DNA of 64,000 nt from a virus, in the IMG/VR virus record IMGVR_UViG_3300032093_000087, positions 6,650-70,649 of that record; one strand, 5' to 3'. Of the stretch, positions 8,528 through 63,360 are shown piece by piece (the stretch's first letter is position 1; the number at the start of each line of letters is the position of its first letter). The position numbers and the translations under genes were made by a program. The notes beneath the pieces were generated by a model. It was not told the DNA's origin. It worked only from the letters and a program-made list of their open reading frames with translations, and searched no databases.

Positions 8528-8912
8528 GGGGGTGTTTATGGATTTGACAGGTATTGGCTGGAGAATAAGGGCATGTGGGGACTGAATTAATCCCCTTAAA
8601 AACTGATTCAGAAAACAACTGGCAATGTGCTAAACAAAATGGAAACTCTTGGTTTACTAAGAGGTTCTGAAGTTACTGTAGCTTAAGAAGTTTACGGAAA
8701 CGGGGGGTCGGTGGACATACAACCTAGCAACAGAAGTCTTTACAAAGGTGGATCACGACTGAACCCAAAATCGAGTCGTCCATTGGTTGTTGATTAACGA
8801 TGGTGAAGAACAAATTAACTATTTTGGGGTATTAGAAAATACCAACCTAAACATGTAGTCCTTACCTTACGGGGTATTATGGACGAGGGTTCGAGACCCT
8901 CCACCTCCACCA
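8528..8912 (+). ncRNA. ssrA: tmRNA
   Basis: 5' GGGGGTG...GGATTTGACAGG; 3' T-arm GAGGG-TTCGAGA-CCCTC and CACCTCC-ACCA giving the G3.U70 alanine pair; tag frame 8621-8686 after AACAACT. Confidence 0.95.
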
Positions 8913-9172: not shown

Positions 9173-9304
9173 TTTTTTTTAATTAAGTTATTAGTTTATT
9201 ATACATAATATATAGTGATTTTTTTTGTAAAAATCAAGTTTTCACATAAAAAAAAAGACAACTAATTGTTGTCTAAGTTATTTTTCCAGTAAAATTTAAA
9301 AAAA

Positions 9305-10175
9305 GGTTGAGATTACACCTGTTATTGAGAACCTTTGGAAGGATTATTGTTTCCCTTCGTATCCACCATCTTTTGAACGGTATTTCTCAGTGACGGTTAT
9401 TTAAGTGAACCACTCTTTGAGGTTTGATCTACTCTCCTATTACTTAACTCTCTCCGAGAATGCCTTCCCAGTTGATCCTTGCGAGATTAGAGGTCTTTGG
9501 TAAAAATACACTCAGACTTGGGGTCTTTATGTGCAACGAACAACTCGTTACTAGGTAGTCACCTTTCGACCAAACCTGACGGACACTTTTCCTTTCTGTA
9601 GTTTAATAATAGATTTATTACTTTCCATAAAGTTTTTGTGTCGTGGATTGTGAAAGTAGTGGTCCGTCTCGAGATTCATTATCTTTTGGACAACGAAATA
9701 CCCAACTACCCTCTGAAATGTCCCCATTTCCATACTTTAAGACTACTTCGAAACAAATCCCTTGGTAGAGATTTATTAAGGACAATTTCAGCACCACCTG
9801 TTTGTTGTCATACCTTTCGGTTTTAAGTATCCTTTAATATTGGAATACGTAATTGTAAATTTGGATAACCTACTTCTCACATAATTCCTACGGGTTATTC
9901 CTATTGGGGTTCCCCCCTCAATCAGATGACCCACATCACCTAATCATAAGATCACTTTCCCTACACCGTTGGCCTCGGTACTAAAGATCTTATGGTATCC
10001 CGCTTGTGTACTCGACCTCGATAATCCGAAGACTAACAAGACGCAAATCAATTTGACAGTTGACTCACTTTATCCCACTTTCGTGGTTTATTTAACGACT
10101 ATACACAGCCAATTATCGTTTATCAGTTCCTGGTGTTTGTCCCGAAGGATCTAACCGTACTCCTGAACGGATAAT
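9305..10175 (-). ncRNA. Large structured non-coding RNA (~870 nt), GOLLD-like candidate
   Basis: No credible ORF; many GNRA/UUCG-capped hairpins on the - strand; TAnnTTTG promoter at 10221-10228, boxA-like motif at 10186-10194, terminator at ~9248-9274. Family not confirmed. Confidence 0.65.
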
Positions 10176-16648: not shown

Positions 16649-16929
16649 ATTAGTCTTTCTTATACGTAATGTAAGAAATTACAAAAATACTAAATATAAC
16701 CAGTGGTGTGATGATTGAAACTATGATTTCACTTTCCATATTCTTTTTATTTTAAGACGAATAAAGTCGTTGTTGGTAGAATTAGATGAATAAAAACATG
16801 TTGTGTATTATCATACATCTTATGTTGATTATTATTAATTAATTTTTTCATTATAAGCTATGAAAATACTGATCATGAATATAATAGTAAAAAAACCAAT
16901 AATAATTAAACCCATATTTTTATTTTTTG

Positions 16930-17003
16930 TGGTCCTTGTTGGGATCGAACCAACCACCTACTGATTATGAGTCAGTTGCTCTAACCGAATGAGCTAAAGG
17001 ACC
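16930..17003 (-). tRNA. tRNA with CAT anticodon, Ile2-type
   Basis: GGTCCTTTAGCTCA...CTGA-CTCATAA-TCAG...GGTTCGATCC...GGACCA cloverleaf; CCA not encoded. Confidence 0.85.
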
Positions 17004-17007
17004 TTTG

Positions 17008-17085
17008 ATGTTAGGGTGGGATTCGAACCCACAATGAGAAACCTTTTAACAGGATTCGGCACCTAGCCTCATTACACTCCTAACA
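17008..17085 (-). tRNA. Aberrant tRNA-like element (pseudo-tRNA), anticodon unclear
   Basis: Acceptor TGTTAGG/CCTAACA and perfect T-arm GTGGG-TTCGAAT-CCCAC; D and anticodon arms irregular. Confidence 0.5.
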
Positions 17086-17226
17086 AACACGACTCTTCAG
17101 CTTTCTACTCCCAGCACCGAGGAATTGTATATAACTTAGCCCATCTCACCGCTGTGTGGGAACTGAAGTTTATCGTCTTTTTCTTATTACAAATATAAAC
17201 AAGTTAGACACTGTCTAACTTATTTG

Positions 17227-17310
17227 TACTCGGAGCCGGAGTCGAACCGGCACGGACAAATGTCCACAGGATTTTAAGTCCGGCGTGTCTACCAATTCCA
17301 CCACCCGAGC
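17227..17310 (-). tRNA. tRNA-Leu(TAA)
   Basis: GCTCGGGTGGTGGAATTGGTAGAC...CTTAAAA loop, long variable arm, TTCGA T-loop. Confidence 0.95.
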
Positions 17311-17387
17311 AAATTTATTCGTTTTTTCTTTTCCTTATGAGTAATATAAACCCAAAAAATGTAATAAATAATAATAGTTCCATATTG

Positions 17388-17459
17388 CGGTCCATCCGGG
17401 AATCGAACCCGAAGCACATCCGTGACAGGGATGTATGTTAGCCGTTACACTAATGGACC
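17388..17459 (-). tRNA. tRNA-Asp(GTC)
   Basis: Cloverleaf with CATCC-CTGTCAC-GGATG anticodon arm. Confidence 0.95.
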
Positions 17460-17607
17460 AAATAAAAGATGATAAATAACTTTATCAGGAATCTCGTCAT
17501 TTAACTTCACACACCATTAGAGAGCTGGGTATTTCTACCTATCCTTAGTGTGTACCCTTGTGAACACCTCTCCGTGTTTGTTATTTTACACTTCCTATCA
17601 TCTTTTG

Positions 17608-17689
17608 TACTCAGGGAGAGACTCGAACTCTCACGTCTTTCGACAGTGGATCCTAAATCCACCGTGACTACCAATTCCACCACCCGAGT
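17608..17689 (-). tRNA. tRNA-Leu(TAG)
   Basis: GTGGA-TTTAGGA-TCCAC anticodon arm, GTCGAAAGAC variable arm. Confidence 0.95.
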
Positions 17690-17775
17690 AAATTAGATGA
17701 GTCGTGGACTTGTGTACCACTTCTGTTCCCCTTTAAATTATTAACTAACCCTGGGTGTGGGAAAACTCATCTTAG

Positions 17776-17848
17776 AGCGGAAGAAGAGACTCGAACTCTC
17801 AACAACCTCCTTGGAAGGGAGGAGCTCTACCAATTGAGCTACTTCCGC
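17776..17848 (-). tRNA. tRNA-Gly(TCC)
   Basis: GCGGAAGTAGCTCAATTGGTAGAGC...CCTCC-CTTCCAA-GGAGG. Confidence 0.95.
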
Positions 17849-18068
17849 AAGTTGTGACTACTCCTTTGGGTTTTGTTTCGTCACATTTACGTGAATGAGG
17901 TGATCAAACCTACTAACATCACGGGTGTAAGTTTATATGTCAAACTATCTCCACAACAACATCAGTTTTTATCAACAAAACTAAAAAACGACTTGACACC
18001 TTGTAACCCCCCTTTAAAGTGTGTGTTACCATCTTCTCTCAAGTAGAACTCTACTGTATACACTCCCG

Positions 18069-18149
18069 TACTGACGGTTGGATTTGAACCAACGTTTTCA
18101 ACTTACCGCTACAGGTATGGACGATATAAGCGTCCACTGGTACGTCAGT
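18069..18149 (-). tRNA. Non-canonical tRNA-like RNA (TAT or GTA anticodon reading)
   Basis: Acceptor ACTGACG/CGTCAGT, T-arm GTTGG-TTCAAAT-CCAAC, internal hairpins TGGACG-CTTATAT-CGTCCA and TACC-TGTAGC-GGTA. Confidence 0.55.
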
Positions 18150-18156
18150 ATTTTAG

Positions 18157-18229
18157 TTGCGGGAGCCAGATTCGAACTGACGATCTCGGCTTATGAGACC
18201 GAGCGGATAACCATCTTCCACATCCCGCA
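18157..18229 (-). tRNA. tRNA-Met(CAT), initiator-like
   Basis: TGCGGGA/TCCCGCA acceptor, TCGGT-CTCATAA-GCCGA anticodon arm. Confidence 0.9.
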
Positions 18230-21506: not shown

Positions 21507-21528
21507 TGTTATGGGTTTATTTAGTTAG

Positions 21529-21602
21529 TGATCCCGGATGGATTCGAACCATCGACCTACTGCTTAGAAGGCAGTTGCTCTATCCAGCTGAGCTACGGGA
21601 CC
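21529..21602 (-). tRNA. tRNA-Arg(TCT)
   Basis: GGTCCCGTAGCTCAGCTGGATAGAGC...ACTGC-CTTCTAA-GCAGT. Confidence 0.95.
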
Positions 21603-51893: not shown

Positions 51894-52430
51894 TTATTGT
51901 TCTGATTCTACAGTTTCCGTAACTACCTCCAAAGTTTGTAAGTCAATAGTTAAAGTAACATCATCACTAACCAAAACACCACCGGTTTCAAGGGGAGCGT
52001 TCCAGGTTAAATCAAAATCATCACGACTTATTTTACCAGAAAACTCAAATCCGTGTTTTCTATTTCCCCACGGGTCAACACTGGTACCATTGTATTCAGA
52101 ACTTAATGTGACTACACGAGTTACACCTTTAATTGTTAAATCACCAGTGATTGATTCATCACCAACGTTGTACCCATTCGAAACAAATGAGATACTTGGG
52201 TATTTTTCCGAATCAAAAAATTCAGGTGACTTTAAATGATTATCCCTATCCAAATTACTAGTATTAATTGAATTGGTGTCCAACGTAAAGTTTACAGATA
52301 ACTTATCCATTTCACCTTTAAGGGATCCATCAAATTTTGTAAAATTACCCCTAACTGTTGAGATCATTAAATGTTTCACTTTAAATCCTACCTCAGAGTG
52401 AGCTGAGTCAATAATTAAATTTTTTTCCAT
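51894..52430 (-). CDS. yceI: YceI-family polyisoprenoid-binding protein
   Basis: IDSAHSEVGFKVKHLMISTVRG.F...RDNHLKS.EFFD..KYP...GDLTIKGVT...DPWGN...GGVLVSDDV. Confidence 0.95.
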   Translation of the reverse strand: MEKNLIIDSAHSEVGFKVKHLMISTVRGNFTKFDGSLKGEMDKLSVNFTLDTNSINTSNLDRDNHLKSPEFFDSEKYPSISFVSNGYNVGDESITGDLTIKGVTRVVTLSSEYNGTSVDPWGNRKHGFEFSGKISRDDFDLTWNAPLETGGVLVSDDVTLTIDLQTLEVVTETVESEQ

Positions 52431-53385: not shown

Positions 53386-54498
53386 TTAATATACCGAAGG
53401 TGAATTATTTTGTTGGTCTGTTTGTTGAGTTGTTGATGAACTCGTAGTACTTGATGGTGAATAATTCGTAACCGGATTACCCTTTGGTAGATAACTTTTT
53501 AAAACCCAAGCGGTATTTGGACCAACAATACCATCCACCTTTAAGTCGGAAGACTTTTGAAACTCCCTCACAGCGGAATCGGTCGTATCATCAAAAACAT
53601 TATCACATTTGTTGGTATCCGATTGACAACCAGACATATCAGATGTTATTTGGGCGTCACCGATTTTATCTGAAATTATTAGTGATCTCTTAAGTTCCAT
53701 AACCCCAACCCCTTTAGATCCTTTTTTTAAGTATAAGTCATTTTCCGATATATCTTCTAATTTAGATGTCTCAGTTGCTGGTGTTTTAGCTTTTCTTTCT
53801 GTAAAAGTGATGGTATTACCATCTAAAGTAAATTTAACATTTTTGGACCATTTATAACCATCCCAATATTCTATAGATCCCCCATCTTTAGAGGATTTAA
53901 ACCAAATAGATTTAAAGTTATCCCCATTAAATCTGATAGTTAAGTCAATACCCCAATTCTGAAAATCAACATCAAAAATGAACGATTCACTATAACCGTT
54001 TAGGTTATTATTTTTATAAAAATCGAAAAATGTTTTTAAATACTTTGAATTTTGATTTAGTTCAGAGTCGGTTATATTCCCGTTCTTAAGTTTCTCAACA
54101 ACGTCCTTAATGTGATCTATCGCGGTTGTGTTTTCAGTTTTAAAGTATTTTGTGTATGCGACAAATTGATCTGGTTTTGTTCTAAGTGTGGTTGGTATAT
54201 TTATAAATTTAATGTAAAAATAACCCGGAAATCGTCTATCATGTATTAATTCTACGGTACCTTTATCAATCCCAAATAACTCCTTAGAGTTTGTTACTTC
54301 CTGTTTGTCCTTAGTTAGTGGACCCAACTTCATACCCATTAATTCATTCATGGTTGTAGTACTATTTGATTGGGTTGTTGCGGTATTTGATGGGGTTGAA
54401 TCTGTTGACCCAACCTCCTGTTCACTAACAATTCGTTTAGACATATACATTGATAATATGTCTTTTTTTTCGTCTTCGGTAAGAATAAATCGTTTCAT
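53386..54498 (-). CDS. Leader-family protein with C-terminal peptidoglycan-binding domain
   Basis: MKRFILTEDEK; LKKGSKG..V.ELK...T..AVREFQK...LKVDGIVGPNT. Confidence 0.75.
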   Translation of the reverse strand: MKRFILTEDEKKDILSMYMSKRIVSEQEVGSTDSTPSNTATTQSNSTTTMNELMGMKLGPLTKDKQEVTNSKELFGIDKGTVELIHDRRFPGYFYIKFINIPTTLRTKPDQFVAYTKYFKTENTTAIDHIKDVVEKLKNGNITDSELNQNSKYLKTFFDFYKNNNLNGYSESFIFDVDFQNWGIDLTIRFNGDNFKSIWFKSSKDGGSIEYWDGYKWSKNVKFTLDGNTITFTERKAKTPATETSKLEDISENDLYLKKGSKGVGVMELKRSLIISDKIGDAQITSDMSGCQSDTNKCDNVFDDTTDSAVREFQKSSDLKVDGIVGPNTAWVLKSYLPKGNPVTNYSPSSTTSSSTTQQTDQQNNSPSVY

Positions 54499-54510: not shown

Positions 54511-54753
54511 CTAACTATCCAGTTTATCAGCTAGTTTTTCCCACTCTTCGTGACTACTAAATCTATTTTTATTTTCTTGTCTAAGTTTTCTCGCTAATTC
54601 CTTGGGGGTATTTTCTTTAAGTCCGATCATACCGTACCCAAGTCTACTAAGTATTATACGAGCCTCCCTTTCAAGAGACTCTTTATTTTCTTTAATTACA
54701 CGATTAACAATCTTTGTTAAATCACTTTCAGTTAGTCTAATTATTTTTTTCAT
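54511..54753 (-). CDS. Leader-family protein, near-identical paralog of 59987..60229
   Basis: Both 80 aa and nearly identical along their length. Confidence 0.85.
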   Translation of the reverse strand: MKKIIRLTESDLTKIVNRVIKENKESLEREARIILSRLGYGMIGLKENTPKELARKLRQENKNRFSSHEEWEKLADKLDS

Positions 54754-54780
54754 AATAATAAATATCTCTGAAAATAATTA

Positions 54781-55695
54781 TTACAATTTTTGATACAATC
54801 CTGGTAGGTCTTTTTGAATATAAATAACCTTTTCCTTAAATGATTTATTTACATAATACTGAATTGGTAAACTCCACTCATATGGCCCAACATATCGGTT
54901 GTGCATTTTTAAAAAATTATCATTAATATAAACATATACAACCCCAGCGTCTACCCAATTGGTCCACAAACTAACAGTTGGTGGTGGGATAACTATTTTT
55001 TCCTTCCCAATAATTTCTAGGGTTCCATTTATTTTCGGATAAAAATTTGTATGGGTACCTAGTATGAAATTGTCAAGGGATAAACCGGCGTATATATTCG
55101 CGTAACCACTATATTTTACAATTACTTTACCAGATCCCCTGGTTAATGTTACGTTTTGTAAGATTAACCCATTAAATTTAACCGTTAGGTGAACCCCAAA
55201 ACATGTTTCACCAAATGGCCAAACATCGTAACAGCTACCATACCATTTATTGGTATTTGAATTTAGGTAATTGTTTATTTTTGGTATTATATATTTTTGT
55301 ATCACTTGATTTACTTCTTGGATTAAAAGTCCCTTATTGTTTGTAAATATGGTGTACGGGTCCACATTTGTGGATTCAGTTAGATTTGTTTGTGTTGATC
55401 CGGATGTTTGACCGGTAACAGCTGGTGGTGTCGTTGGTGTTAAACTCTTAGGTGTTTGTTTGGGTCCTTTTATATAATCAAGTAACTCTTTTTGACTTGG
55501 GTTTTCCTTTTTAAAAATATTTAACGACCAATTTTTAATTTTGTTGTCAGATTTAATAAGATTCACAAATTTAGAAAATAGATTATTAATGCTAGTCTTT
55601 TCTTGACTTTGTTCAGACGAAGTAACTTCCATCAACAATGGTTTAACATTACCTAATTTCGACTCAAGTAGTTCTTTAAATCTAAAAATGTTCAT
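54781..55695 (-). CDS. Hypothetical protein
   Basis: N-terminal RFKELLESKLGNVKPLLME. Confidence 0.7.
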   Translation of the reverse strand: MNIFRFKELLESKLGNVKPLLMEVTSSEQSQEKTSINNLFSKFVNLIKSDNKIKNWSLNIFKKENPSQKELLDYIKGPKQTPKSLTPTTPPAVTGQTSGSTQTNLTESTNVDPYTIFTNNKGLLIQEVNQVIQKYIIPKINNYLNSNTNKWYGSCYDVWPFGETCFGVHLTVKFNGLILQNVTLTRGSGKVIVKYSGYANIYAGLSLDNFILGTHTNFYPKINGTLEIIGKEKIVIPPPTVSLWTNWVDAGVVYVYINDNFLKMHNRYVGPYEWSLPIQYYVNKSFKEKVIYIQKDLPGLYQKL

Positions 55696-55698
55696 ATA

Positions 55699-55968
55699 TT
55701 ACATACCGATATTTCCTCGTAGATTACGTATTGTATAATTAAAATCCTTCTCTAACTGGTCAATAGCTCTTTCGTATTGTCTACGATTTCTTGGTCCATC
55801 TGGAGCGTAATTATTTAACATCTCATAACCAAAGTCCATAACTTTATTAATGTCCCCACCCATTCTTTCATCGAACATTTCATCACCCATAGATTCTTCA
55901 TTTTCTTTGATGATCCTTTTAATCAGTCTTGTTAACTCTCTTTCATTAAGTCTTATTGTATTTTTCAT
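55699..55968 (-). CDS. Leader-family protein
   Basis: MKNTIRLNERELTRLIKRIIKE. Confidence 0.8.
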   Translation of the reverse strand: MKNTIRLNERELTRLIKRIIKENEESMGDEMFDERMGGDINKVMDFGYEMLNNYAPDGPRNRRQYERAIDQLEKDFNYTIRNLRGNIGM

Positions 55969-56035
55969 AACATTTTTTTATTTATAAATACATTGATTAG
56001 TAAAAAAAAACAAATCGAGTGGGTGGTGGATTAGA

Positions 56036-56215
56036 TTATAAACGGGAAGCGGTTTCCATAATAGACCTTAATTTATTTTCCAATTCTCGGACCTCCCTTA
56101 ATTGACTCTCATTTAAATCTAATGACTCACCTTTTACTGATGAGATTTTGTTTTGGGTTCGTGTGTACTCCATCATTAATTGGGTATACTTTTGTGCTTT
56201 TTCTTCGTTGTTCAT
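56036..56215 (-). CDS. Small coiled-coil protein (59 aa), not in the ORF track
   Basis: MNNEEKAQKY...METASRL; TATTTAT upstream. Confidence 0.55.
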   Translation of the reverse strand: MNNEEKAQKYTQLMMEYTRTQNKISSVKGESLDLNESQLREVRELENKLRSIMETASRL

Positions 56216-56285
56216 ACTTTATATATAAGTGATAAATATTAAAAGGAAATAAAAAAACCCCACTTTATAGGTGGGGGTTTTTTAT

Positions 56286-56600
56286 TTAATATTCTTCATA
56301 CTCGTCGTAATCGTCATCCTCGTCATCCTCATCGGATCTAACATCCCAATCACCGTAACTATCCCTAAACGCGGTCCATCCGTAGATGTTAGGACCAACT
56401 TCACCGATCCAATCCTGGATACCCATTCTATCGTCCGGATCGTTACTTGAATTCCATTTACTTAGATCCTGTCTAACCATGTCCCACCACTCAGTTTTAC
56501 TCTTAGCTACCCTAGGGCTGTCATCTTTTTTCATCTCATTTATTGTTCTACGAATAACCTTAGTTAATTCAGACTCCGTTAATCTTATAGTTTGTTTCAT
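56286..56600 (-). CDS. Leader-family protein
   Basis: MKQTIRLTESELTKVIRRTINE. Confidence 0.8.
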   Translation of the reverse strand: MKQTIRLTESELTKVIRRTINEMKKDDSPRVAKSKTEWWDMVRQDLSKWNSSNDPDDRMGIQDWIGEVGPNIYGWTAFRDSYGDWDVRSDEDDEDDDYDEYEEY

Positions 56601-56611
56601 ACTAGTAAATA

Positions 56612-57196
56612 TTATAAAAATTGATTTTCATATTCCATTTGTTTAAATATCGGACGACACATATGTAGTATATTTGAAACGTAGGTTACGTTTAACCAAG
56701 TTATTATATCCTTAAATGTTTCAAAATCTTGTTTAAGTTCAAATCTCACATATTCATCTAGGGGTCTCCCGGTTATAACACCTTTTTTGATGTACAGATC
56801 AACGTCAACCGGTAAAAAACAATTCCCATCCCAATAAGGAGTCGCGACACCATCAAGGACATCACCGGTACTTATTTTTGTAACTTTAAAATATACCGTC
56901 TCACCATAACCACCAGGGTAAATTTTAACCACATAATCACCCCATTTATGTTCTAATTTCATTACTTTCTTACTTCCACCCCACCATTCCATAGACTCGG
57001 ATCCAGAATTTACCACGGAATCACATATTTCATACAAATCAGTACAACTAAGTTTTGGTAACTTGTGATCACCATAAATTTTAAAAATCTGAGGTAATGT
57101 TAGTCTCATTCTTTCCATGGTCTCAACAAACCCATGTTCTAAAAATGATTTTGATAATAGGTTTTTTAAATTAGATTCTGTGATGATGTATTTCAT
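56612..57196 (-). CDS. Leader-family protein, paralog of 46653..47219
   Basis: MKYIITESNL; GVATPYWDGNCFLP. Confidence 0.75.
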   Translation of the reverse strand: MKYIITESNLKNLLSKSFLEHGFVETMERMRLTLPQIFKIYGDHKLPKLSCTDLYEICDSVVNSGSESMEWWGGSKKVMKLEHKWGDYVVKIYPGGYGETVYFKVTKISTGDVLDGVATPYWDGNCFLPVDVDLYIKKGVITGRPLDEYVRFELKQDFETFKDIITWLNVTYVSNILHMCRPIFKQMEYENQFL

Positions 57197-57205
57197 ATAT
57201 GTTAA

Positions 57206-57754
57206 TTATCTATACCCGTGTCTGAGTCTAGGGTTATCAAGTCCGTTTCTCTCCAACCAATCAACAAGTGAATTGTATAGATTCTCATCCTTATTAGCTA
57301 CGGTATAAAAAAGGTATGATTCTGCTTCATCCTCCTCAAAAAACCCAGGTTGTGACAACCTATATACCGTATCGTATATTTTATTCAATTCTTCAGGTGT
57401 GAATTGTGATAGTGGGTCCATATCTAGGTTTTCATCGTCACCCTCCATGTCCATACCATAATAGTCATCACTCATGTCACCATCCTCACTATAATCCTCA
57501 AACAATGAGTTAGTTGAGTGAAGTAGTCTTCTACCTTTTTCTTTAAGGTACTCAAGATCCTCCTCGTTACCCTCACAATATCTAATCACAATTGTTTCAT
57601 CATCAATGTCAACGTGACCACTTCTAATATTCCTCCCACAATCAACCGATTGTATGTCATAGGAATAGTCATAATCCATTTCCCTATTTTCCTTAACAAT
57701 TCTCGTAATCAGTCTTGTTAAATCGGATTCTGTAAGTCTAATAATTTTTTTCAT
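57206..57754 (-). CDS. Leader-family acidic protein (start moved to MKKIIRLTESDL)
   Basis: Leader motif and upstream TATTTAT. Confidence 0.8.
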   Translation of the reverse strand: MKKIIRLTESDLTRLITRIVKENREMDYDYSYDIQSVDCGRNIRSGHVDIDDETIVIRYCEGNEEDLEYLKEKGRRLLHSTNSLFEDYSEDGDMSDDYYGMDMEGDDENLDMDPLSQFTPEELNKIYDTVYRLSQPGFFEEDEAESYLFYTVANKDENLYNSLVDWLERNGLDNPRLRHGYR

Positions 57755-57785
57755 ATTAATAAATATATCATAAAATAACAATTAC

Positions 57786-58547
57786 TTAAACACCTTTCCT
57801 ACCAAGAATCCAGTTACAACCATACAATCTATTGTTTTTCCTATTTTTAAGGTTTTTGAAATCAAGTAAAAGTATTTGGGTAAGGGCGGCAATAAAAGAT
57901 TTTTTCCATTTTGAAGCACATTTAAACCCTATACTAGCCTGAAGTTTATAGATTAAACACCTCAACATAACACAAATAAAGTAAGCAGCCATAGTAATCC
58001 ACATCCAAGGTTTAATTCTTTGTAAATAAGGATATAAATCAGGGAAACTTCTTTGTATTACATTTGTTTCATATGGGTCAGGATCTTGTTCTGATATTTC
58101 TGTTTTAGGAGGTTCGACTCCCGGTTGATTTATACTAGGCTTTTTTAATTTTTTTATAAATTCAGATATTAATTTTCTAAGATCATCAATTGTTAGTTTT
58201 TCTAAATTTGTTGTTGGTAATTTTTGTATTTCATTTATTAATGTTTTAGTTTGAGTTTTATAATCACCATCTTGGTCAGACCCATTTGGGATACTAACTA
58301 AATTAGACGCTTCATTAACGAGTCTTTGGATATCACCAGCACTTTTAACTTCGTTGTCTATAGTGTCAATTAATTTTTCATCATTAGCTGAACACATATA
58401 TTGTGTGTTAGCATTGTCTGGTGTATTTTGTAAATTTGTTACGTTATACTCTGTTGGTGGTGTTGTAACTTGTTCGGAAATCACCCTACCCTTTTGATAT
58501 GAAAGAAGGTATTTCACATAATTCAATTCTTCATTAATATTTTTCAT
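57786..58547 (-). CDS. Membrane protein with second leader type (start MKNINEEL)
   Basis: EL..VKYLLSYQKG.VISEQ resembles the N-terminus of 42809..44002; C-terminal TM. Confidence 0.7.
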   Translation of the reverse strand: MKNINEELNYVKYLLSYQKGRVISEQVTTPPTEYNVTNLQNTPDNANTQYMCSANDEKLIDTIDNEVKSAGDIQRLVNEASNLVSIPNGSDQDGDYKTQTKTLINEIQKLPTTNLEKLTIDDLRKLISEFIKKLKKPSINQPGVEPPKTEISEQDPDPYETNVIQRSFPDLYPYLQRIKPWMWITMAAYFICVMLRCLIYKLQASIGFKCASKWKKSFIAALTQILLLDFKNLKNRKNNRLYGCNWILGRKGV

Positions 58548-58619
58548 ATTAATAAATATTATATAAAACAAAAAAACCCCACCGATGAGGTGGGGGTATT
58601 AAACTCAATATATAATTTT

Positions 58620-59192
58620 TTATTTTCTTCTTTTAATTTTTAGTGGTTGCCCTTTTGCTGTGTACCGGTCATAATATTGTTTAGGATTTGTCCCGTACAT
58701 TCTTGAAGCACTTTTCATACCATATTTATCTACAAAGTCATCAAATTGATCTTCACCATATTCTTCATCCTCAAACTCATCATCATTAAATTCATAATTA
58801 CCAGGTAGACCTTGTTTATTAATCCAACGCTCATTTCCGTGAGAAGCATACATATCACCTTCGTAATAATCATAATCACCTGATTTCTGTCCCTGTAGAG
58901 AAACACCTTTCCTCATTGAGTAATCAAGAAGTTCTTCCCATTGATTTAAATAATTATCCTTTTGGTCTTGATCCAACTGAGAGTCATTTTGAATTTCTTG
59001 TTCCAAATTACTTACTTCATCGTTAACATCAATAAATTCATCATAATTGTGGGTTGTTCTTACTTTATTTTTAAGTGATTTAAGTTTAGAATCGTACTTA
59101 TTATCTGGGAACATATCCATTTGATTTTCTCGAATGACACGTTTAACAAGACGTATTAAATCTGATTCTGTAAGACGTATAGTTTTTTTCAT
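58620..59192 (-). CDS. Leader-family protein
   Basis: MKKTIRLTESDLIRLVKRVIRE. Confidence 0.8.
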   Translation of the reverse strand: MKKTIRLTESDLIRLVKRVIRENQMDMFPDNKYDSKLKSLKNKVRTTHNYDEFIDVNDEVSNLEQEIQNDSQLDQDQKDNYLNQWEELLDYSMRKGVSLQGQKSGDYDYYEGDMYASHGNERWINKQGLPGNYEFNDDEFEDEEYGEDQFDDFVDKYGMKSASRMYGTNPKQYYDRYTAKGQPLKIKRRK

Positions 59193-59285
59193 AATATTAT
59201 TTTATATATAAATATATCATAAATAAAAAAAAACCCACCGATGAGAGGTGGGGGGGATTTAAACACACAAAATAATATAAAATGA

Positions 59286-59516
59286 TTAAACCAAAGAATC
59301 TATTTCCTCGTCATCAAATATCTCCAAACTACTGTAAGCGATGTCCATAGCGGCACCATTGTCAAATCTAACGGCCACAAAATGATCAAAACTTCCATAT
59401 AAACCAAATTTATGGTTTGGAATCGTAGTACCTAATGAACCTTCGACACAACGAGAATCGTATCTGGTTAAATCTACGTTCAAACGAACTCTAACTGGGG
59501 GACCTCCTAACTGCAT
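59286..59516 (-). CDS. Small hypothetical protein
   Basis: ORF track; own TAnnTTTG promoter and terminator. Confidence 0.65.
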   Translation of the reverse strand: MQLGGPPVRVRLNVDLTRYDSRCVEGSLGTTIPNHKFGLYGSFDHFVAVRFDNGAAMDIAYSSLEIFDDEEIDSLV

Positions 59517-59644
59517 ATTAAATAATTTAAAGATTAATAAAACAAATATAGTGGATAATTTTTAATTGGCCAAATTTTATATCATAATAATAATAAATAA
59601 AAAACCCCACCGATGAGGTGGGGGTAGTCAAAATAGTTTTTTTA

Positions 59645-59977
59645 TCAAAATTTAGGGTATGATTTCTCATCATTCCGATTATAAGAATAACCTAAATCTC
59701 TAATTTTCTTTTTTAGATCCTTAATTTCACGTTCATAAAAACCAATCTCTTGAGGGTCTATGTTCATTGAGTCATAGAAGTACAAATAATGATTTAATTC
59801 TTTTGTTAATTCATCAACCTTCTCCTTTTTGGAAAGTTCAACTGGAGTTGAGTCGTCCGGTTTTTCTTTCTTAAACATTTTGGAAATCCAATTTTCCTTA
59901 ACTTCATTGTTTTCTTCAACAATCCTTTTAATAAGTCTTGTCAACTCCGATTCTGTTAATCTTATAGTTTTTTTCAT
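59645..59977 (-). CDS. Leader-family protein
   Basis: MKKTIRLTESELTRLIKRIVEE. Confidence 0.8.
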   Translation of the reverse strand: MKKTIRLTESELTRLIKRIVEENNEVKENWISKMFKKEKPDDSTPVELSKKEKVDELTKELNHYLYFYDSMNIDPQEIGFYEREIKDLKKKIRDLGYSYNRNDEKSYPKF

Positions 59978-59986
59978 ATTGTGTAA

Positions 59987-60229
59987 TTAATCTTCCAATT
60001 TATCGGCTAACTTTTCCCATTCTTCGTGATTGCCAAATCTATCTTTATTTTCTTGTCTAAGTTTTCTCGATAATTCCTTGGGGGTATCTTCCTTAAGTCC
60101 GGTCATACGATACCCAAGTCTACTAAGTATTATACGAGCTTCCCTTTCAAGACCCTCCTTATTTTCTTTAATCACTCGTTTAACAATCCTTGTTAAATCT
60201 GATTCTGTTAATCTTATAATTTTTTTCAT
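59987..60229 (-). CDS. Leader-family protein, paralog of 54511..54753
   Basis: MKKIIRLTESDLTRIVKRVIKE. Confidence 0.85.
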   Translation of the reverse strand: MKKIIRLTESDLTRIVKRVIKENKEGLEREARIILSRLGYRMTGLKEDTPKELSRKLRQENKDRFGNHEEWEKLADKLED

Positions 60230-60248
60230 AGTTTTTTATTTATAAAAA

Positions 60249-60566
60249 TTAGGACTTCCTACTCTTATCCTCAAATGACCAAAGTCTAATGATATCTGAA
60301 ACAAAACCTTTATAATCATTTACTGTTTCCTCTGGTAATTTTTTAAGGTTTATTTTTTCATCTTCAAAAAACTGATCAATTCTTGATTTAAATTCTTCAG
60401 TACTATTGGAAGTGTCAGTTATATTATAAATTTCACCAAATAATTCATCCCCAAGACGTTCCCAAGATAATCTTTCATCTCCTATACGTGGATAACCGTA
60501 TTCATTAATTATTCTTTTAACAAGTCTTGTTAAATCTCTTTCTGTAAGTCTAATAATTTTTTTCAT
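60249..60566 (-). CDS. Leader-family protein (start moved to MKKIIRLTERDL)
   Basis: Leader motif and upstream TATTTAT. Confidence 0.8.
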   Translation of the reverse strand: MKKIIRLTERDLTRLVKRIINEYGYPRIGDERLSWERLGDELFGEIYNITDTSNSTEEFKSRIDQFFEDEKINLKKLPEETVNDYKGFVSDIIRLWSFEDKSRKS

Positions 60567-60620
60567 ATTAATAAATATTATATAAAACAAAAAACCCCAC
60601 CGATGAGGTGGGGTTCGAGA

Positions 60621-61409: not shown

Positions 61410-61524
61410 TATGTAATTTTTAATTTTATTAATACTGAAAACAAATATAGTGGATATTTTTTAATTAACCAAATTTTATATCATAAAAATAATAATAAAT
61501 AAAAAACCCCACCGATGAGGTGGG

Positions 61525-61898
61525 GTTATATTTCTAGTTTCAAATAAGGATCATACACAATATATCATTTAAAAATACTGAATTATATACTGTATAATGT
61601 TGTGATTACCTTTCAAATAAGGATTATACACAATACGATGGGAAATTGTACAATTATATCCAAAGTTGTGATTACCTTTCAAATAAGGATCATACACAAT
61701 AACTTGTCCGAACATCCATAATACCATTGTGTTGTGATTACCTTTCAAATAAGGACCATACACAATGATGAAAAATTCAACATTTTGGGGACCCCAGTTG
61801 TGATTACCTTTCAAATAAGGATCATACACAATTTGGATCTAATGTTGATCTCATCATGACTGGTTGTGATTACCTTTCAAATAAGGATCATACACAAT
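61525..61898 (-). CRISPR. CRISPR array: 5 full 36-nt repeats plus 1 degenerate terminal repeat, 5 spacers
   Basis: Repeat (- strand) ATTGTGTATGATCCTTATTTGAAAGGTAATCACAAC at 61863-61898, 61797-61832, 61731-61766, 61665-61700, 61599-61634; degenerate copy at 61525-61561; unique spacers of 30, 30, 30, 30 and 37 nt; terminator directly after the degenerate copy. Confidence 0.97.
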
Positions 61899-62009
61899 GT
61901 GTATTTAGGAAACATGATAAATTGAAAGGCTCTTGTTGTCATATGAAACCCACAAAGTGAATTTCGACCACAATTAAATTGGATGTCACACCACCCAGTT
62001 TTTTGTTTC
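61899..62009 (-). ncRNA. Putative tracrRNA / omega-RNA-derived scaffold
   Basis: GCCTTTCAA (61922-61930) complementary to repeat TTGAAAGGT; ATCAT (61914-61918) to repeat ATGAT; TTGTGGT (61967-61973) to repeat 3' ATCACAA. Confidence 0.6.
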
Positions 62010-63257
62010 CTAATTTTTTAAATTGTCAAAGAACATTTTCTTACCTACGTCTCGAATGTTTAACGCTGCGTTGTAATCACGATCAATTACATTTTTACAG
62101 TTTTCACATTCCCAGACCCGGTCAGTTAAAAGTAGATTTTGATTTACCGAACCACAGTTATTACATTTCTTACTTGTGGGGTAATACCTATCCACCTTAA
62201 TTGTGTGTTTCCCGTTGGATTCACTTTTATATTCAATCATTTCACGTAACATTCCAAAACCTGAGTCCAGGATATTTCGATTTAGATTTGATTTTTGTTT
62301 TACATTTTTACCTGGGTTTTCTACGGTACCCTTATTTGATTTGGTCATTTCAACAACATCCAAATCCTCCATACAAATTAGGTCGTGCTCACCAACCAAT
62401 TTTTTAGATACATTATGAAGATAATGTTTACGACAATTAGCTATTTTCTCTTCTAAAATTCTAATCTTTTTACTTAACTTTTTCCAGTTATTAGAATACT
62501 TAACACATTTATCCCTTTTACTTTTTAATTTTGACAAATGGTTTAAATGTTTTTGTAAGTATCTTGGGTTTTCAATAACCTCATTGTCCGATGTAACGAC
62601 CAATGATTTAACACCAAGATCAATACCAACAACAGACTCAACATCAACCTTCTTGACCTCATTTACATATTCAACCATTATTGATACGTAGTACTTATCG
62701 TTTTTTCTGGAGATTGTATAGGTTTTTGGTGTACCGACAATAGGTCTATGGTATTCTACTTTAATATTACCAGTTATTTTGGGTAATGTTAACTTACCAT
62801 CTTCTTTTATTCCGTGTTTAAGTTTATTAGAACCAGTTAAATGTGTGGTGAAACTTTGTCTTGGGTGATTTTTTTTTCTAAAATCGGGAGGTGTTGGTTT
62901 TTTTAAATCTAAATTTGGATTTTTTTTAATCCTCTCGTTATATATTTTTAGTCTCTCGAAATAATTTGACCAACTACCACTTAAATATTTCATTTCGTCA
63001 AGATAAATCGTTGAGTCGTAATCATTTAAAAAGGGTGCTGATTTCCTATAGTTTGATATATGTGAGTTAAAACCAAAATGTGATAGATTTGGTTTACCAC
63101 CCAAAGAATATATTTGTCGGTCCAGGTCTATTGTTAGGTTCCTAACGTATCTAGCGGATTGTATCGCCCCCTCTATTTGTTTAATCTGGGTTTTATTGGG
63201 GTATATTCTATATTTGAACCCCTTATTAGATACTCCAACCTTTTTTTCTTTTTTCAC
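62010..63257 (-). CDS. tnpB: TnpB / Cas12f-like RNA-guided RuvC nuclease, CRISPR-adjacent
   Basis: N-terminal KGFKYRIYPN..Q; RuvC-I VGIDLG, RuvC-II CMEDL, Zn finger CNNC...CENC, RuvC-III DRDYNAALNI; all three catalytic acids present. Confidence 0.92.
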   Translation of the reverse strand: MKKEKKVGVSNKGFKYRIYPNKTQIKQIEGAIQSARYVRNLTIDLDRQIYSLGGKPNLSHFGFNSHISNYRKSAPFLNDYDSTIYLDEMKYLSGSWSNYFERLKIYNERIKKNPNLDLKKPTPPDFRKKNHPRQSFTTHLTGSNKLKHGIKEDGKLTLPKITGNIKVEYHRPIVGTPKTYTISRKNDKYYVSIMVEYVNEVKKVDVESVVGIDLGVKSLVVTSDNEVIENPRYLQKHLNHLSKLKSKRDKCVKYSNNWKKLSKKIRILEEKIANCRKHYLHNVSKKLVGEHDLICMEDLDVVEMTKSNKGTVENPGKNVKQKSNLNRNILDSGFGMLREMIEYKSESNGKHTIKVDRYYPTSKKCNNCGSVNQNLLLTDRVWECENCKNVIDRDYNAALNIRDVGKKMFFDNLKN

Positions 63258-63261
63258 AATA

Positions 63262-63293
63262 CAAATCTAGGAGTATTTTTTTTAATAGTCAAA
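63262..63293 (-). promoter_or_regulatory. Host-type promoter of the TnpB/CRISPR unit
   Basis: TTTGAC (63288-63293) and TAGATTTG (63262-63269), 4 nt before the GTG start. Confidence 0.6.
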
Positions 63294-63360
63294 TTATTTT
63301 GAAAAATTTCCAAAAATTTTTTTTCAGTATTTGGGTCTTATATAAAGAGGGGGTTCTAGT

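What the first reader, a model, noticed from the sequence alone, without database searches (positions are those of the whole stretch)
61525..61898. Repeat resembles Bacteroidota type VI-B and Cas-lambda repeats: possible borrowing of host adaptation machinery
Seen: 36-nt repeat with complementary ends (ATTGTG...CACAAC) and a TTTGAAAGGTA core; four spacers are exactly 30 nt and the distal one is 37 nt. I noticed no spacer match elsewhere in the window, but this was not an exhaustive search. Known (recalled, not searched): Cas13b repeats are 36 nt, of form GTTG...TTTGAA(A/G)GGTA...CAAC, with 30-nt spacers; VI-B loci often lack cas1/cas2 and can acquire spacers through type II-C adaptation proteins; Cas-lambda repeats also run ATTGT...ACAAC. 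Inference: the array was captured from or mimics a host VI-B array and may be updated by host Cas1-Cas2. It could alternatively, or also, load host Cas13b as guides or decoys.
Basis: partly seen in the sequence, partly recalled or inferred. Interest (0 to 1): 0.7.

Follow-up and report, generated by a model that had tools for sequence, protein, structure and literature searches.

The report
Phage TnpB nuclease with Cas13b-type array
A large freshwater phage carries a very small TnpB-type RNA-guided nuclease gene followed by a short CRISPR array whose repeats belong to the family used by bacterial Cas13b systems, which suggests a transposon nuclease that adopted a ready-made array type.

Summary
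The array is real: five identical or near-identical 36-nt repeats, a sixth that keeps only its first 24 nt, and spacers of 30, 30, 30, 30 and 37 nt.

The likeness to type VI-B repeats holds when tested. The last 19 nt recur in 36/30-nt arrays of Bacteroidota. All 5 large neighbouring ORFs tested there are Cas13b. Read in reverse, the same half is 16/19 identical to the start of a type II repeat in a Chryseobacterium genome.

The array does not stand alone. It lies 110 nt downstream of a 415-aa TnpB-family gene with an intact RuvC triad and a TnpB fold, on the same strand. Between them is a conserved structured RNA whose 3' strand is the 3' half of the first repeat, supported by covariation.

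Gene, scaffold and array recur together in at least 11 variants (39-100% protein identity). No spacer is shared between variants.

No cas1, cas13b or tnpA was found in the phage records, which are mostly fragments.

Best reading (0.6): a phage-borne TnpB-derived mini type V ("TranC"-like) system that uses a VI-B-family array, probably refreshed by host Cas1-Cas2. Use by host Cas13b is neither shown nor excluded. It may belong to the published TranC clade 9.

The parts
63258..63352 (-). Upstream region conserved with the relatives' cassettes. It holds a promoter-like site, TTGACT-17-TAGATT, at 63292-63264.
   Evidence: Homology between the window/L136 lineage and the L045/L142 lineage begins about 95 nt before the start codon. 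The promoter-like site is from the consensus scan only.
62010..63257 (-). 415-aa TnpB-family RNA-guided nuclease gene with a GTG start.
   Evidence: Pfam: OrfB_IS605 3.5e-25, Cas12f1-like_TNB 7.7e-24, HTH_OrfB_IS605. NCBIfam guided_TnpB scores 288.9 bits against a cut-off of 100. D213, E297, D394 and C365/C368/C384/C387 are conserved in 22 sequences. The AF2 model has pLDDT 85.1; its best fold match is ISDra2 TnpB 8h1j, TM 0.74/0.84.
61899..62012 (-). Conserved structured non-coding RNA (omega-RNA / tracrRNA-like scaffold). It has a closing stem GGAAAC/GTTTCC, stem 1 at 61997-61980 with loop GTGTGA, a covarying stem 2, and an anti-repeat GCCTTTCAA at 61930-61922.
   Evidence: Alignments A1 and A3. 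Consensus fold with 11 of 25 pairs showing compensatory changes. Pair count: 93.7% paired, 13 pairs changed on both sides, 0 of 500 shuffles as good. MFE of the window sequence.
61863..61898 (-). Repeat 1. Its 3' half (TTGAAAGGT ... TCACA) forms the 3' strand of scaffold helix 5 and of the proposed pseudoknot.
61833..61862 (-). Spacer 1 (30 nt).
   Evidence: Also present in RNA-library contigs and in DNA run X12.
61797..61832 (-). Repeat 2.
61767..61796 (-). Spacer 2 (30 nt). It has one candidate natural target in environmental DNA run X12.
   Evidence: In one search, record 5 (151 nt) matches 61764-61795 with 2 other letters and has non-repeat flanks on both sides.
61731..61766 (-). Repeat 3 (one substitution).
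61701..61730 (-). Spacer 3 (30 nt).
61665..61700 (-). Repeat 4.
61635..61664 (-). Spacer 4 (30 nt).
61599..61634 (-). Repeat 5 (one substitution).
61562..61598 (-). Distal 37-nt AT-rich spacer (14% G+C).
61526..61561 (-). Terminal truncated repeat. The first 24 nt are kept and the 3' half is lost.
   Evidence: The same truncation is seen in L136, L045, L142 and L130.
61505..61527 (-). Terminator-like hairpin followed by a T run; it closes the cassette.
   Evidence: Conserved in L010/L045. A second copy lies at 60571-60615.

Best explanation
The array is the guide store of a phage-borne, miniature, TnpB-derived CRISPR effector. That makes it a type V-like "transposon-CRISPR intermediate", not a free-standing VI-B array.

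Gene, scaffold and array are read from the minus strand, probably starting at the conserved promoter-like site upstream of the gene. The RNA after the stop codon folds into an omega-RNA-like scaffold. Its anti-repeat (GCCUUUCAA) and a hairpin loop (UGUGA) pair with the 3' half of a repeat (UUGAAAGGU ... UCACA). This places the spacer that follows in the guide position, as in TnpB and Cas12 (repeat 5', spacer 3').

The 415-aa protein has an intact RuvC triad and a TnpB fold. I infer that it cuts DNA of competing phages or other mobile elements next to a 5' motif that is still unknown.

The repeat is homologous to Bacteroidota VI-B repeats, and in reverse to the start of type II repeats. The most economical account is that a TnpB element took over, or inserted into, an array of that family. 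New 30-nt spacers would then be added by the host's type II Cas1-Cas2, as shown for VI-B arrays in Flavobacterium.

Shown: the anatomy, conserved synteny, covarying RNA structure in cis, repeat homology, spacer turnover, and the absence of cas1, cas13b and tnpA from the records held.

Inferred:
- use of the internal repeats with the scaffold in trans;
- DNA cleavage;
- host-supplied adaptation (my odds about 0.4);
- a Bacteroidota host.
For: (1) Position. The gene, a 110-nt spacer-free stretch, the array and a terminator lie in that order on one strand.

(2) Conserved trio.
- The scaffold-motif scans returned 5 viral and 17 metagenome stretches.
- All 5 viral and 11 of the 17 metagenome stretches are this cassette.
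- Every one has VI-B-like repeats directly after the scaffold.
- In the protein-led scan of 80 viral loci, the 2 closest relatives (45% and 55% identity) both have the array.
- None of the other 78 has an array downstream of the gene.
- Proteins in the family are 39-100% identical to the window's.

(3) RNA.
- Across 9 lineages the structure is 93.7% paired.
- 13 of 30 pairs changed on both sides.
- 0 of 500 shuffles do as well, and slid controls reach at most 51% paired.
- The helix between anti-repeat and repeat is 96.8% paired.
- The loop-repeat helix is 100% paired, with one compensatory change, in L126.
- In five lineages (L131, L133, L126, L130, L140) the first "repeat" is only its 3' 16-20 nt, fused to the scaffold, like an omega-RNA followed by a guide.

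(4) The terminal repeat lacks its 3' half in 5 variants. That costs nothing under repeat-then-spacer reading, but wastes the last spacer under Cas13b's spacer-then-repeat reading.

(5) Protein. NCBIfam guided_TnpB scores 288.9 bits. The catalytic D/E/D residues and the zinc cysteines are conserved. The fold is closest to ISDra2 and ISFba1 TnpB.

(6) Not an ordinary IS. There is one copy per record and no Y1 transposase in 5 records; the control rang in 6 of 14 genomes.

(7) VI-B leaders of 6 bacterial loci show no likeness to the scaffold. The covariance model hits only the repeat part there.

(8) Spacers turn over. Among 60 distinct spacers in about 11 variants, none is shared between close variants: window vs L136; L045 vs L142; L131 vs L133 vs L141.

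(9) Contigs at least 99% identical from three RNA libraries (three studies) cover the array (S1-S3), the scaffold and the last ~260 nt of the ORF.

(10) A 151-nt environmental contig carries spacer 2 (29 of 30 nt plus 3, with 2 other letters) between non-repeat flanks.

(11) Precedent. TranC systems, including a 414-aa-average clade found in a Caudoviricetes genome, are reported to be active with CRISPR arrays (passages of bioRxiv 10.64898/2026.03.27.714800).
Against: Pairing of the scaffold with internal repeats in trans is not supported by energy. In 7 of 8 lineages, 22 to 189 of 300 shuffled repeats pair as well; only L126 stands out, at 2 of 300.

A leader that pairs with the first repeat is itself a known feature of true VI-B arrays (PMC13187072, passages). 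Helix 5 alone therefore does not prove a tracrRNA-type role.

No homologous scaffold was found beside the 78 more distant TnpB genes, so the ancestral omega-RNA end is unknown.

Apart from the single X12 contig, no target was found for any spacer. No flanking motif or strand rule can be read from one case.

The RNA evidence is contigs only, and DNA carry-over in those libraries is not excluded.

All but one of the phage records are fragments (8-64% complete by CheckV). The absence of cas1 and cas13b from these phages is therefore not established.
Confidence: 0.6

Rival explanations
1. Orphan VI-B array for the host's Cas13b. The phage transcribes VI-B-type crRNAs that load host Cas13b, either as guides against rival phages' transcripts or as decoys that saturate it. 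The TnpB gene is only a neighbour, for example an insertion sequence that landed beside the array.
For: The repeat is 24-29 of 36 identical to Cas13b-adjacent repeats, with the same 36/30 layout and the same orientation relative to the upstream gene. It can form the end-to-end hairpin. Leader-first-repeat pairing is a VI-B hallmark, and overexpressed extra crRNA can sequester Cas13b (PMC13187072 passages). No effector other than the TnpB gene is in the record.
Against: The gene-scaffold-array trio is kept down to 39% protein identity. The scaffold is unlike VI-B leaders. Scaffold stems 1 and 2 covary and have no role in this reading. The last spacer lacks a usable repeat in 5 variants. A second, unrelated TnpB-type gene sits beside a similar array in another huge phage.
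Confidence: 0.12
2. Dual use. One pre-crRNA is read as repeat-then-spacer by the phage TnpB-type nuclease (DNA targets) and as spacer-then-repeat by host Cas13b (RNA targets or decoy). It is refreshed by host Cas1-Cas2.
For: All the evidence for the best explanation applies, together with the full-length VI-B-like repeats in the window lineage. The half of the repeat shared with VI-B and type II repeats is also the half that pairs with the scaffold.
Against: Nothing here shows Cas13b binding. Cas13b activation induces cellular dormancy (PMC13187072 passage), which I infer would also hurt the phage.
Confidence: 0.1
3. An ordinary mobile TnpB element whose omega-RNA simply reads into neighbouring DNA. 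The array would be a decaying relic with no present function.
For: The protein is an unexpanded TnpB by fold and by HMM. Arrays are short, 3-6 repeats.
Against: Repeats are kept nearly identical within each array, while spacers are completely replaced between close variants. There is no transposase, and each record holds a single copy. RNA-library contigs cover the array.
Confidence: 0.06

Closest known systems
TranC (transposon-CRISPR intermediate) systems, especially clade 9 / CauTranC9
   Same: A TnpB-sized effector with a short downstream CRISPR array and a scaffold RNA split from the omega-RNA. Clade 9 averages 414 aa. Its tested member comes from a Caudoviricetes genome, has 5 repeats, and its spacers hit phages (passages of bioRxiv 10.64898/2026.03.27.714800). 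The founding paper, Jin et al., Cell 2025, was seen only as a reference entry.
   Different: The preprint gives 38-bp repeats for clade 9; here they are 36 nt. [quoted passage not shown] Sequences are in supplements that I could not open, so membership is untested. By sequence, LaTranC (9jfo) is a distant match, 3.8e-16.
IS200/IS605 TnpB with omega-RNA (ISDra2, ISFba1)
   Same: Same fold (TM 0.74/0.84 to 8h1j, 0.76/0.82 to 8iaz) and size, with a RuvC triad and a zinc finger. A structured RNA follows the gene, with the guide 3' of the scaffold.
   Different: There is no transposase, and each record holds one copy. The guide position is fed by a CRISPR array. The window clade carries an insertion of about 25 aa, roughly aa 103-130.
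Type VI-B CRISPR arrays of Bacteroidota (e.g. Bergeyella zoohelcum ATCC 43767, Chryseobacterium, Sphingobacterium)
   Same: 36-nt repeats and 30-nt spacers, the shared 3' 19-mer, and an array directly downstream of the effector gene on the same strand. No adjacent cas1/cas2. For such VI-B loci, spacer acquisition in trans by a type II-C Cas1 was shown in Flavobacterium columnare (PMC8092290 passages).
   Different: The effector gene here is a 415-aa TnpB-type nuclease, not a ~1,100-1,200-aa Cas13b. The leader is a structured scaffold unrelated to VI-B leaders. The 5' 17 nt of the repeat are only 6-10 of 17 identical.
Cas12f and the V-U branches (type V effectors with arrays but no adaptation genes)
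   Same: Small RuvC effectors with a downstream array and usually no cas1/cas2. Passages of PMC10691335 describe 40 such branches and leave open whether arrays arise by omega-RNA duplication or by insertion next to an existing array.
   Different: Scores are below the curated cut-offs for Cas12f2 (76.6 vs 450) and C2c8 (137 vs 350). The fold is nearer to TnpB than to Cas12f, TM 0.56-0.61.
Phage-borne repeat or guide mimics (RNA anti-CRISPRs; viral sgRNAs against Cas9)
   Same: Phage-encoded RNAs that copy host CRISPR repeats. RNA anti-CRISPRs ("Racrs") are mentioned in a passage of PMC13187072. The viral sgRNA preprint 10.64898/2026.06.01.729453 was seen only in a search listing.
   Different: Here the repeats sit in a multi-spacer, turning-over array tied to the phage's own nuclease gene and scaffold.
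Cas-lambda (Cas12l)
   Same: Phage-encoded type V effector with a 36-nt repeat-derived crRNA scaffold (PMC12141684 passage).
   Different: Cas-lambda chains are 739 and 673 residues and rank 37-39 in the fold search, TM 0.48-0.58 / 0.30-0.38.

Membership tests
TnpB family (RNA-guided endonuclease, IS200/IS605 OrfB) | Profile match above the curated cut-off. | tested here: met
   NCBIfam guided_TnpB NF040570 scores 288.9 bits against a cut-off of 100. Three Pfam domains score above their gathering thresholds. The narrower IS200_TnpB model is below its cut-off, 262.4 vs 425.
TnpB family (RNA-guided endonuclease, IS200/IS605 OrfB) | RuvC D-E-D triad and CxxC...CxxC zinc finger. | tested here: met
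   D213, D394 and C365/C368/C384/C387 are invariant, and E297 is at least 90% conserved, in 22 sequences.
TnpB family (RNA-guided endonuclease, IS200/IS605 OrfB) | TnpB fold. | tested here: met
   AF2 model pLDDT 85.1. Foldseek top matches are 8h1j (6e-27, TM 0.74/0.84) and 8iaz.
TnpB family (RNA-guided endonuclease, IS200/IS605 OrfB) | Part of a mobile IS: a transposase nearby, several copies, defined ends. | tested here: not met
   No Y1 transposase in 5 records; the control rang in 6 of 14 genomes. One copy in each of the 4 records that hold the gene; G004 has none. IS ends were not sought.
Type V-like / TranC (TnpB-derived effector using a CRISPR array) | A CRISPR array conserved directly downstream of the effector gene. 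| tested here: met
   All 16 family stretches found by the scaffold motif, and the 2 closest of 80 protein-led loci, have it.
Type V-like / TranC (TnpB-derived effector using a CRISPR array) | A scaffold or tracrRNA that pairs with the repeat. | tested here: inconclusive
   Pairing in cis with the first repeat is supported by covariation. Pairing in trans with internal repeats is no better than shuffles in 7 of 8 lineages.
Type V-like / TranC (TnpB-derived effector using a CRISPR array) | Spacer-guided DNA cleavage with a 5' motif. | not testable with these tools
   Only one candidate protospacer.
TranC clade 9 specifically | Sequence membership in the published clade. | not testable with these tools
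   Sequences are in closed supplements. Size (414-aa average) and phage origin fit; the repeat length given (38 bp) differs.
Type VI-B CRISPR array | Repeat sequence and architecture shared with Cas13b-adjacent arrays. | tested here: met
   24-29 of 36 identical, with a 36/30 layout. 5 of 5 large neighbouring ORFs tested are the VI_Cas13b equivalog, 432-853 bits.
Type VI-B CRISPR array | cas13b in the locus or genome. | tested here: not met
   0 of 5 phage records. The positive control found it in 5 of 5 bacterial genomes, 4 of them above the cut-off. Four of the five phage records are incomplete (8-64% by CheckV); the fifth, G004, is rated complete, but that rating may be an artefact of CRISPR repeats at its ends.
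Cas-lambda-type repeat | Repeat sequence likeness. | not tested
   The repeat sequence was not in the accessible text; only the 36-nt length is.

The most novel reading that the evidence does not exclude
The array is common currency between three machines of different CRISPR types. It is refreshed by the host's type II Cas1-Cas2. The phage's TnpB-type nuclease reads it as repeat-then-spacer to cut DNA. Host Cas13b reads it as spacer-then-repeat. The phage thereby arms itself and also reprograms or saturates the host's RNA-targeting defence. As a corollary, the family would be a natural snapshot of a type V system born by taking over an array of another type, rather than by duplicating its own omega-RNA.
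Probability: 0.1. Interest if true: 0.85.

Novelty: new variant of a known kind. Interest (0 to 1): 0.58.

Why it matters
Passages of PMC10691335 leave one question open: do TnpB-derived effectors get their arrays by duplicating part of their own omega-RNA, or by settling next to an existing array? Here the repeats are demonstrably of a family that serves a different effector (Cas13b). They also share their conserved half with type II repeats, while the scaffold is the TnpB's own. That favours take-over of an existing array type. It also gives a concrete way for a Cas1-less phage system to obtain spacers, by fitting the repeat standard that the host's adaptation proteins already serve.

The family also spans two states. 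In some lineages the scaffold is fused to a half repeat; in others it is closed and followed by whole repeats. This makes the omega-RNA-to-tracrRNA/crRNA split testable in natural variants. The effector, at 380-415 aa, is among the smallest array-linked nucleases.

If it is simply TranC clade 9, the new element is limited to the repeat's kinship and what that implies for adaptation.

Tried and rejected
Spacer targets.
- Own 70.6-kb record, up to 7 mismatches: none.
- 60 family spacers against all fetched loci: only self hits and chance 20-26-nt matches.
- Arrays of the window, L045, L130 and L131 against 50,697 isolate phage records: nothing below E 0.03.
- First 24 nt of window spacers 1-4 in IMG/VR: 0 hits each.
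- Window array against 401 genomes of the class of G008: only repeat-type hits and weak partial ones.
- Spacer 2 with up to 3 mismatches in G001-G004: none.

Host.
- Bacterial arrays and cas loci against all phage sequence held: only 17-33-nt chance-level matches, E 0.006-0.04.
- The phage tmRNA against 301 genomes of the same class: one 33-nt hit.
- The host remains inferred.

Ancestral omega-RNA.
- The covariance model over 78 distant viral TnpB loci and L153 found nothing convincing.
- Five metagenome hits to the scaffold motif share one sequence.
- In the one examined (L144) it lies inside a coding gene and has no array.

Trans pairing energy is not significant.

PHROG scans of neighbours in the window, L126, L128, L130 and L140 were mostly blank.

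RNA-library contigs do not cover 62282-63350 or 61450-61641. I draw no transcript ends from it.

Full report
OBSERVATION. Read on the minus strand there are five 36-nt repeats, ATTGTGTATGATCCTTATTTGAAAGGTAATCACAAC; two of them carry one substitution each. A sixth copy at 61526-61561 keeps only its first 24 nt. Spacers are 30, 30, 30, 30 and 37 nt. The ends pair over 5 bp and the core forms a short stem, but the hairpin's energy is unremarkable, z -1.26. No spacer matches the 70,649-base record at up to 7 mismatches.

SETTING. The window is part of an IMG/VR virus record rated 24% complete, so the phage is large. It also encodes a GOLLD RNA, a tmRNA and seven tRNAs. On the minus strand the order is as follows.
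- A conserved upstream stretch with a promoter-like site.
- A 415-aa ORF at 62010-63257.
- 110 nt of non-coding sequence.
- The array.
- A terminator-like hairpin at 61527-61505.

THE REPEAT FAMILY. A scan of one genome per prokaryote species with the last 19 nt (three positions R) gave 30 stretches. Eight had two or more matches, and all eight are from Bacteroidota. Seven of them show runs of 66-nt spacing, which corresponds to 36-nt repeats and 30-nt spacers; L037 has only two matches, 513 nt apart. I tested the five large neighbouring ORFs, from Bergeyella zoohelcum, Chryseobacterium, Sphingobacterium, a Bacteroidales MAG and Capnocytophaga stomatis. All five are the NCBIfam Cas13b equivalog, 432-853 bits. 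Each lies upstream of its array on the same strand.

Over all 36 nt the window repeat is 24-29 of 36 identical to these repeats; random 36-mers of the window reach 21 at most. The likeness is concentrated in the last 19 nt, which the search itself required. The first 17 nt are 6-10 of 17 identical.

In the Chryseobacterium genome that holds a VI-B array, a cas9 (C-terminal part)-cas1 (type II model, 284.6 bits)-cas2 locus has a 47-nt repeat and 30-nt spacers. The first 19 nt of that repeat are 16/19 identical to the window repeat read on the plus strand. The likeness to Cas-lambda could not be tested.

THE ARRAY DOES NOT STAND ALONE. The ORF is a TnpB-family protein. Its catalytic D213/E297/D394 and four zinc cysteines are conserved. 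The AF2 model (pLDDT 85.1) is closest to ISDra2 and ISFba1 TnpB, TM 0.74-0.76 / 0.82-0.84. That is nearer than to Cas12f or LaTranC. By sequence the best solved relatives are 9j09 over the C-terminal half and ISDra2 TnpB over the full length.

A related 187-kb phage contig has the same gene (78% identity), a nearly identical non-coding stretch, and an array with other spacers. The homology covers a cassette that runs from about 95 nt before the start codon to the terminator, and the genes on either side differ.

A scan with a 20-21-nt motif from the non-coding stretch found 5 viral and 17 metagenome stretches. All 5 viral ones and 11 of the 17 metagenome ones are this cassette, each with VI-B-like repeats right after the scaffold. 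The other 6 are unrelated: five share one sequence that, in the one examined (L144), lies inside a coding gene, and one is GC-rich.

A protein-led scan returned 80 viral loci. The two closest (45% and 55% identity) have the array. None of the other 78 has an array downstream of the gene. Three of them were flagged for repeated words elsewhere in the locus and were not followed up.

Family proteins are 39-100% identical to the window's. Close variants share no spacers: window vs L136 (90% protein identity), L045 vs L142, and L131 vs L133 vs L141. In all there are 60 distinct spacers of 28 nt or more, counting the stretch after each last repeat. Three loci carry two gene-scaffold-array units in tandem.

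THE NON-CODING RNA. An alignment of nine lineages folds into four elements.
- A hairpin TGGGTG/CATCCA with loop GTGTGA.
- A second, strongly covarying stem.
- A helix between GCCTTTCAA and the repeat's TTGAAAGGT.
- As I propose, a pairing of the loop's TGTGA with the repeat's TCACA.

Counted on the alignment, 93.7% of cells pair and 13 of 30 pairs changed on both sides. No shuffle out of 500 reaches these values, and sliding the partners drops pairing to 40-51%. The loop-repeat pairing has one compensatory change, TGTAA/TTACA in L126. The half of the repeat shared with VI-B and type II repeats is therefore also the half held by the scaffold.

In five lineages the first "repeat" is only its 3' 16-20 nt, fused to the scaffold. 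In the window lineage the scaffold is closed by a GGAAAC/GTTTCC stem and is followed by a whole repeat. In five variants the terminal repeat keeps only its 5' part.

Three caveats apply. First, VI-B leaders are reported to pair with their first repeat (PMC13187072, passages), so that helix alone does not prove a tracrRNA role. However, six VI-B leaders show no likeness to this scaffold. Second, pairing of the scaffold with internal repeats in trans is no better than with shuffled repeats in 7 of 8 lineages. Third, no related scaffold was found beside more distant TnpB genes.

OTHER CAS GENES. No Cas1, Cas13b or Y1 transposase was found in five phage records: the window's record plus records of 187, 73, 29 and 363 kb. 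The Cas13b search was validated on five bacterial genomes, 5 of 5 found and 4 above the cut-off. Four of the five records are fragments. The fifth is called complete from terminal repeats that are in fact CRISPR repeats. Of the five VI-B-bearing bacterial genomes, 3 have Cas1 elsewhere. In Flavobacterium columnare a VI-B array acquires spacers through the type II-C Cas1 (PMC8092290, passages).

EXPRESSION AND TARGETS. Fourteen DNA runs, mostly labelled freshwater or lake, hold at least half of the sampled words. Six RNA runs hold 15-23%. Contigs at least 99% identical from three RNA libraries of three studies cover 61671-62271, which spans spacers 1-3, the scaffold and the last ~260 nt of the ORF. 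These are contigs, so neither transcript ends nor strand can be read from them, and DNA carry-over is possible.

In DNA run X12, a 151-nt contig matches 61764-61795 with two other letters, between flanks that are not repeats. That range covers 29 of the 30 nt of spacer 2 plus three adjacent letters. I estimate the chance expectation at well under 1e-5 for 1.46 Gb. On the side of the spacer's 5' end the flank reads ...GTTCTTG in crRNA sense. This is a single case and gives no rule. All other target searches were blank (see Tried and rejected).

A SECOND CASE. A 363-kb phage contig carries a similar array, GTTGTTGATCTATTGAATTTGAAAGGTAGTCACAAC with 30-nt spacers. It lies 250 nt downstream of a 501-aa TnpB-family / Cas12f-like ORF that is only marginally similar to the window protein, 32% over 65 aa. 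Two unrelated TnpB-type genes beside the same repeat family suggest that the repeat type follows the host's adaptation standard rather than the effector's ancestry. This is inference.

WHAT IS KNOWN. TnpB-derived effectors with arrays are established.
- Forty V-U branches are described (PMC10691335, passages).
- About 50 independent origins are reported (PMC12669027, passages).
- The TranC systems are described in a review passage and reference entry for Jin et al. 2025 and in preprint passages.

TranC clade 9 averages 414 aa. Its tested member comes from a Caudoviricetes genome with 5 repeats. This locus may belong to it, but I could not check because the sequences are in supplements. The repeat length given there is 38 bp.

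In my searches and in the passages read, I found no statement that a TnpB- or Cas12-type effector uses repeats of the VI-B/II-C family. The Cell paper and all supplements were not visible to me, so this is not a claim of absence from print.

VERDICT. Most likely (0.6) this is a phage-borne TnpB-type mini CRISPR system that works with a VI-B-family array and its own scaffold RNA. Spacers are probably supplied by host Cas1-Cas2 (about 0.4). Use of the array by host Cas13b, alone or in addition, remains possible (0.1-0.12 each). It is a new variant of a known kind and of moderate to good interest.

Noticed in passing
window 9304-9713 (-) and 8528-8912 (+): A full-length GOLLD RNA (328.5 bits, E 2.3e-93) lies about 400 nt from a tmRNA gene (108 bits) in this phage fragment. 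ARAGORN did not call the tmRNA.
   Followed up: partly
window 16929-18229 and 21528-21602 (-): Seven tRNA genes: Met x2, Leu x2, Asp, Gly, Arg. Six of them are in one cluster.
   Followed up: no
window 54511-60590 (-): At least eight small ORFs share an N-terminus of the form MKK(T/I)IRLTE(S/R)(D/E)LT(R/K)(L/I)(V/I)(K/N/R)R(V/I)I, followed by unrelated, often acidic tails. Examples are 54511-54753, 55699-55968, 56286-60590 (several), and 59987-60229. A 67-nt DNA repeat links 60164-60230 and 60501-60567. No family match was sought.
   Followed up: no
window 60571-60615 and 61483-61527: The same terminator hairpin (AAAACCCCACCGATGAGGTGGGGTT) occurs twice, 912 nt apart. It closes both the array cassette and the gene block before it.
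   Followed up: partly
L153 6546-8051 and 8303 onward; G004 ends: A 363-kb phage contig has a 501-aa TnpB-family / Cas12f-like ORF 250 nt upstream of a VI-B-like array. The array runs off both contig ends, so the 'direct terminal repeats' behind its 100% completeness call may just be CRISPR repeats.
   Followed up: partly
L131, L133, L143 (metagenome contigs): Two complete gene-scaffold-array units in tandem, 1,542 nt apart, each with its own spacers. Here the scaffold is fused to a half repeat.
   Followed up: partly
window 61764-61795 vs run X12: A 151-nt environmental contig carries spacer 2 between non-repeat flanks. It is a candidate protospacer from the same kind of habitat.
   Followed up: partly
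window 3423-5480 (+), 51894-52430 (-), 53386-54498 (-): A Clp-type ATPase (PHROG 4871, 787.6 bits), a YceI-like protein (Pfam 9.1e-46), and a protein with a peptidoglycan-binding domain.
   Followed up: no
G008:C9:58364-59269: The Flavobacteriales MAG whose array is among the most similar to the window's has only a weak Cas13b-model match (39 bits), inside a 1,113-aa open frame about 2.6 kb from that array. It may be a divergent Cas13b.
   Followed up: no
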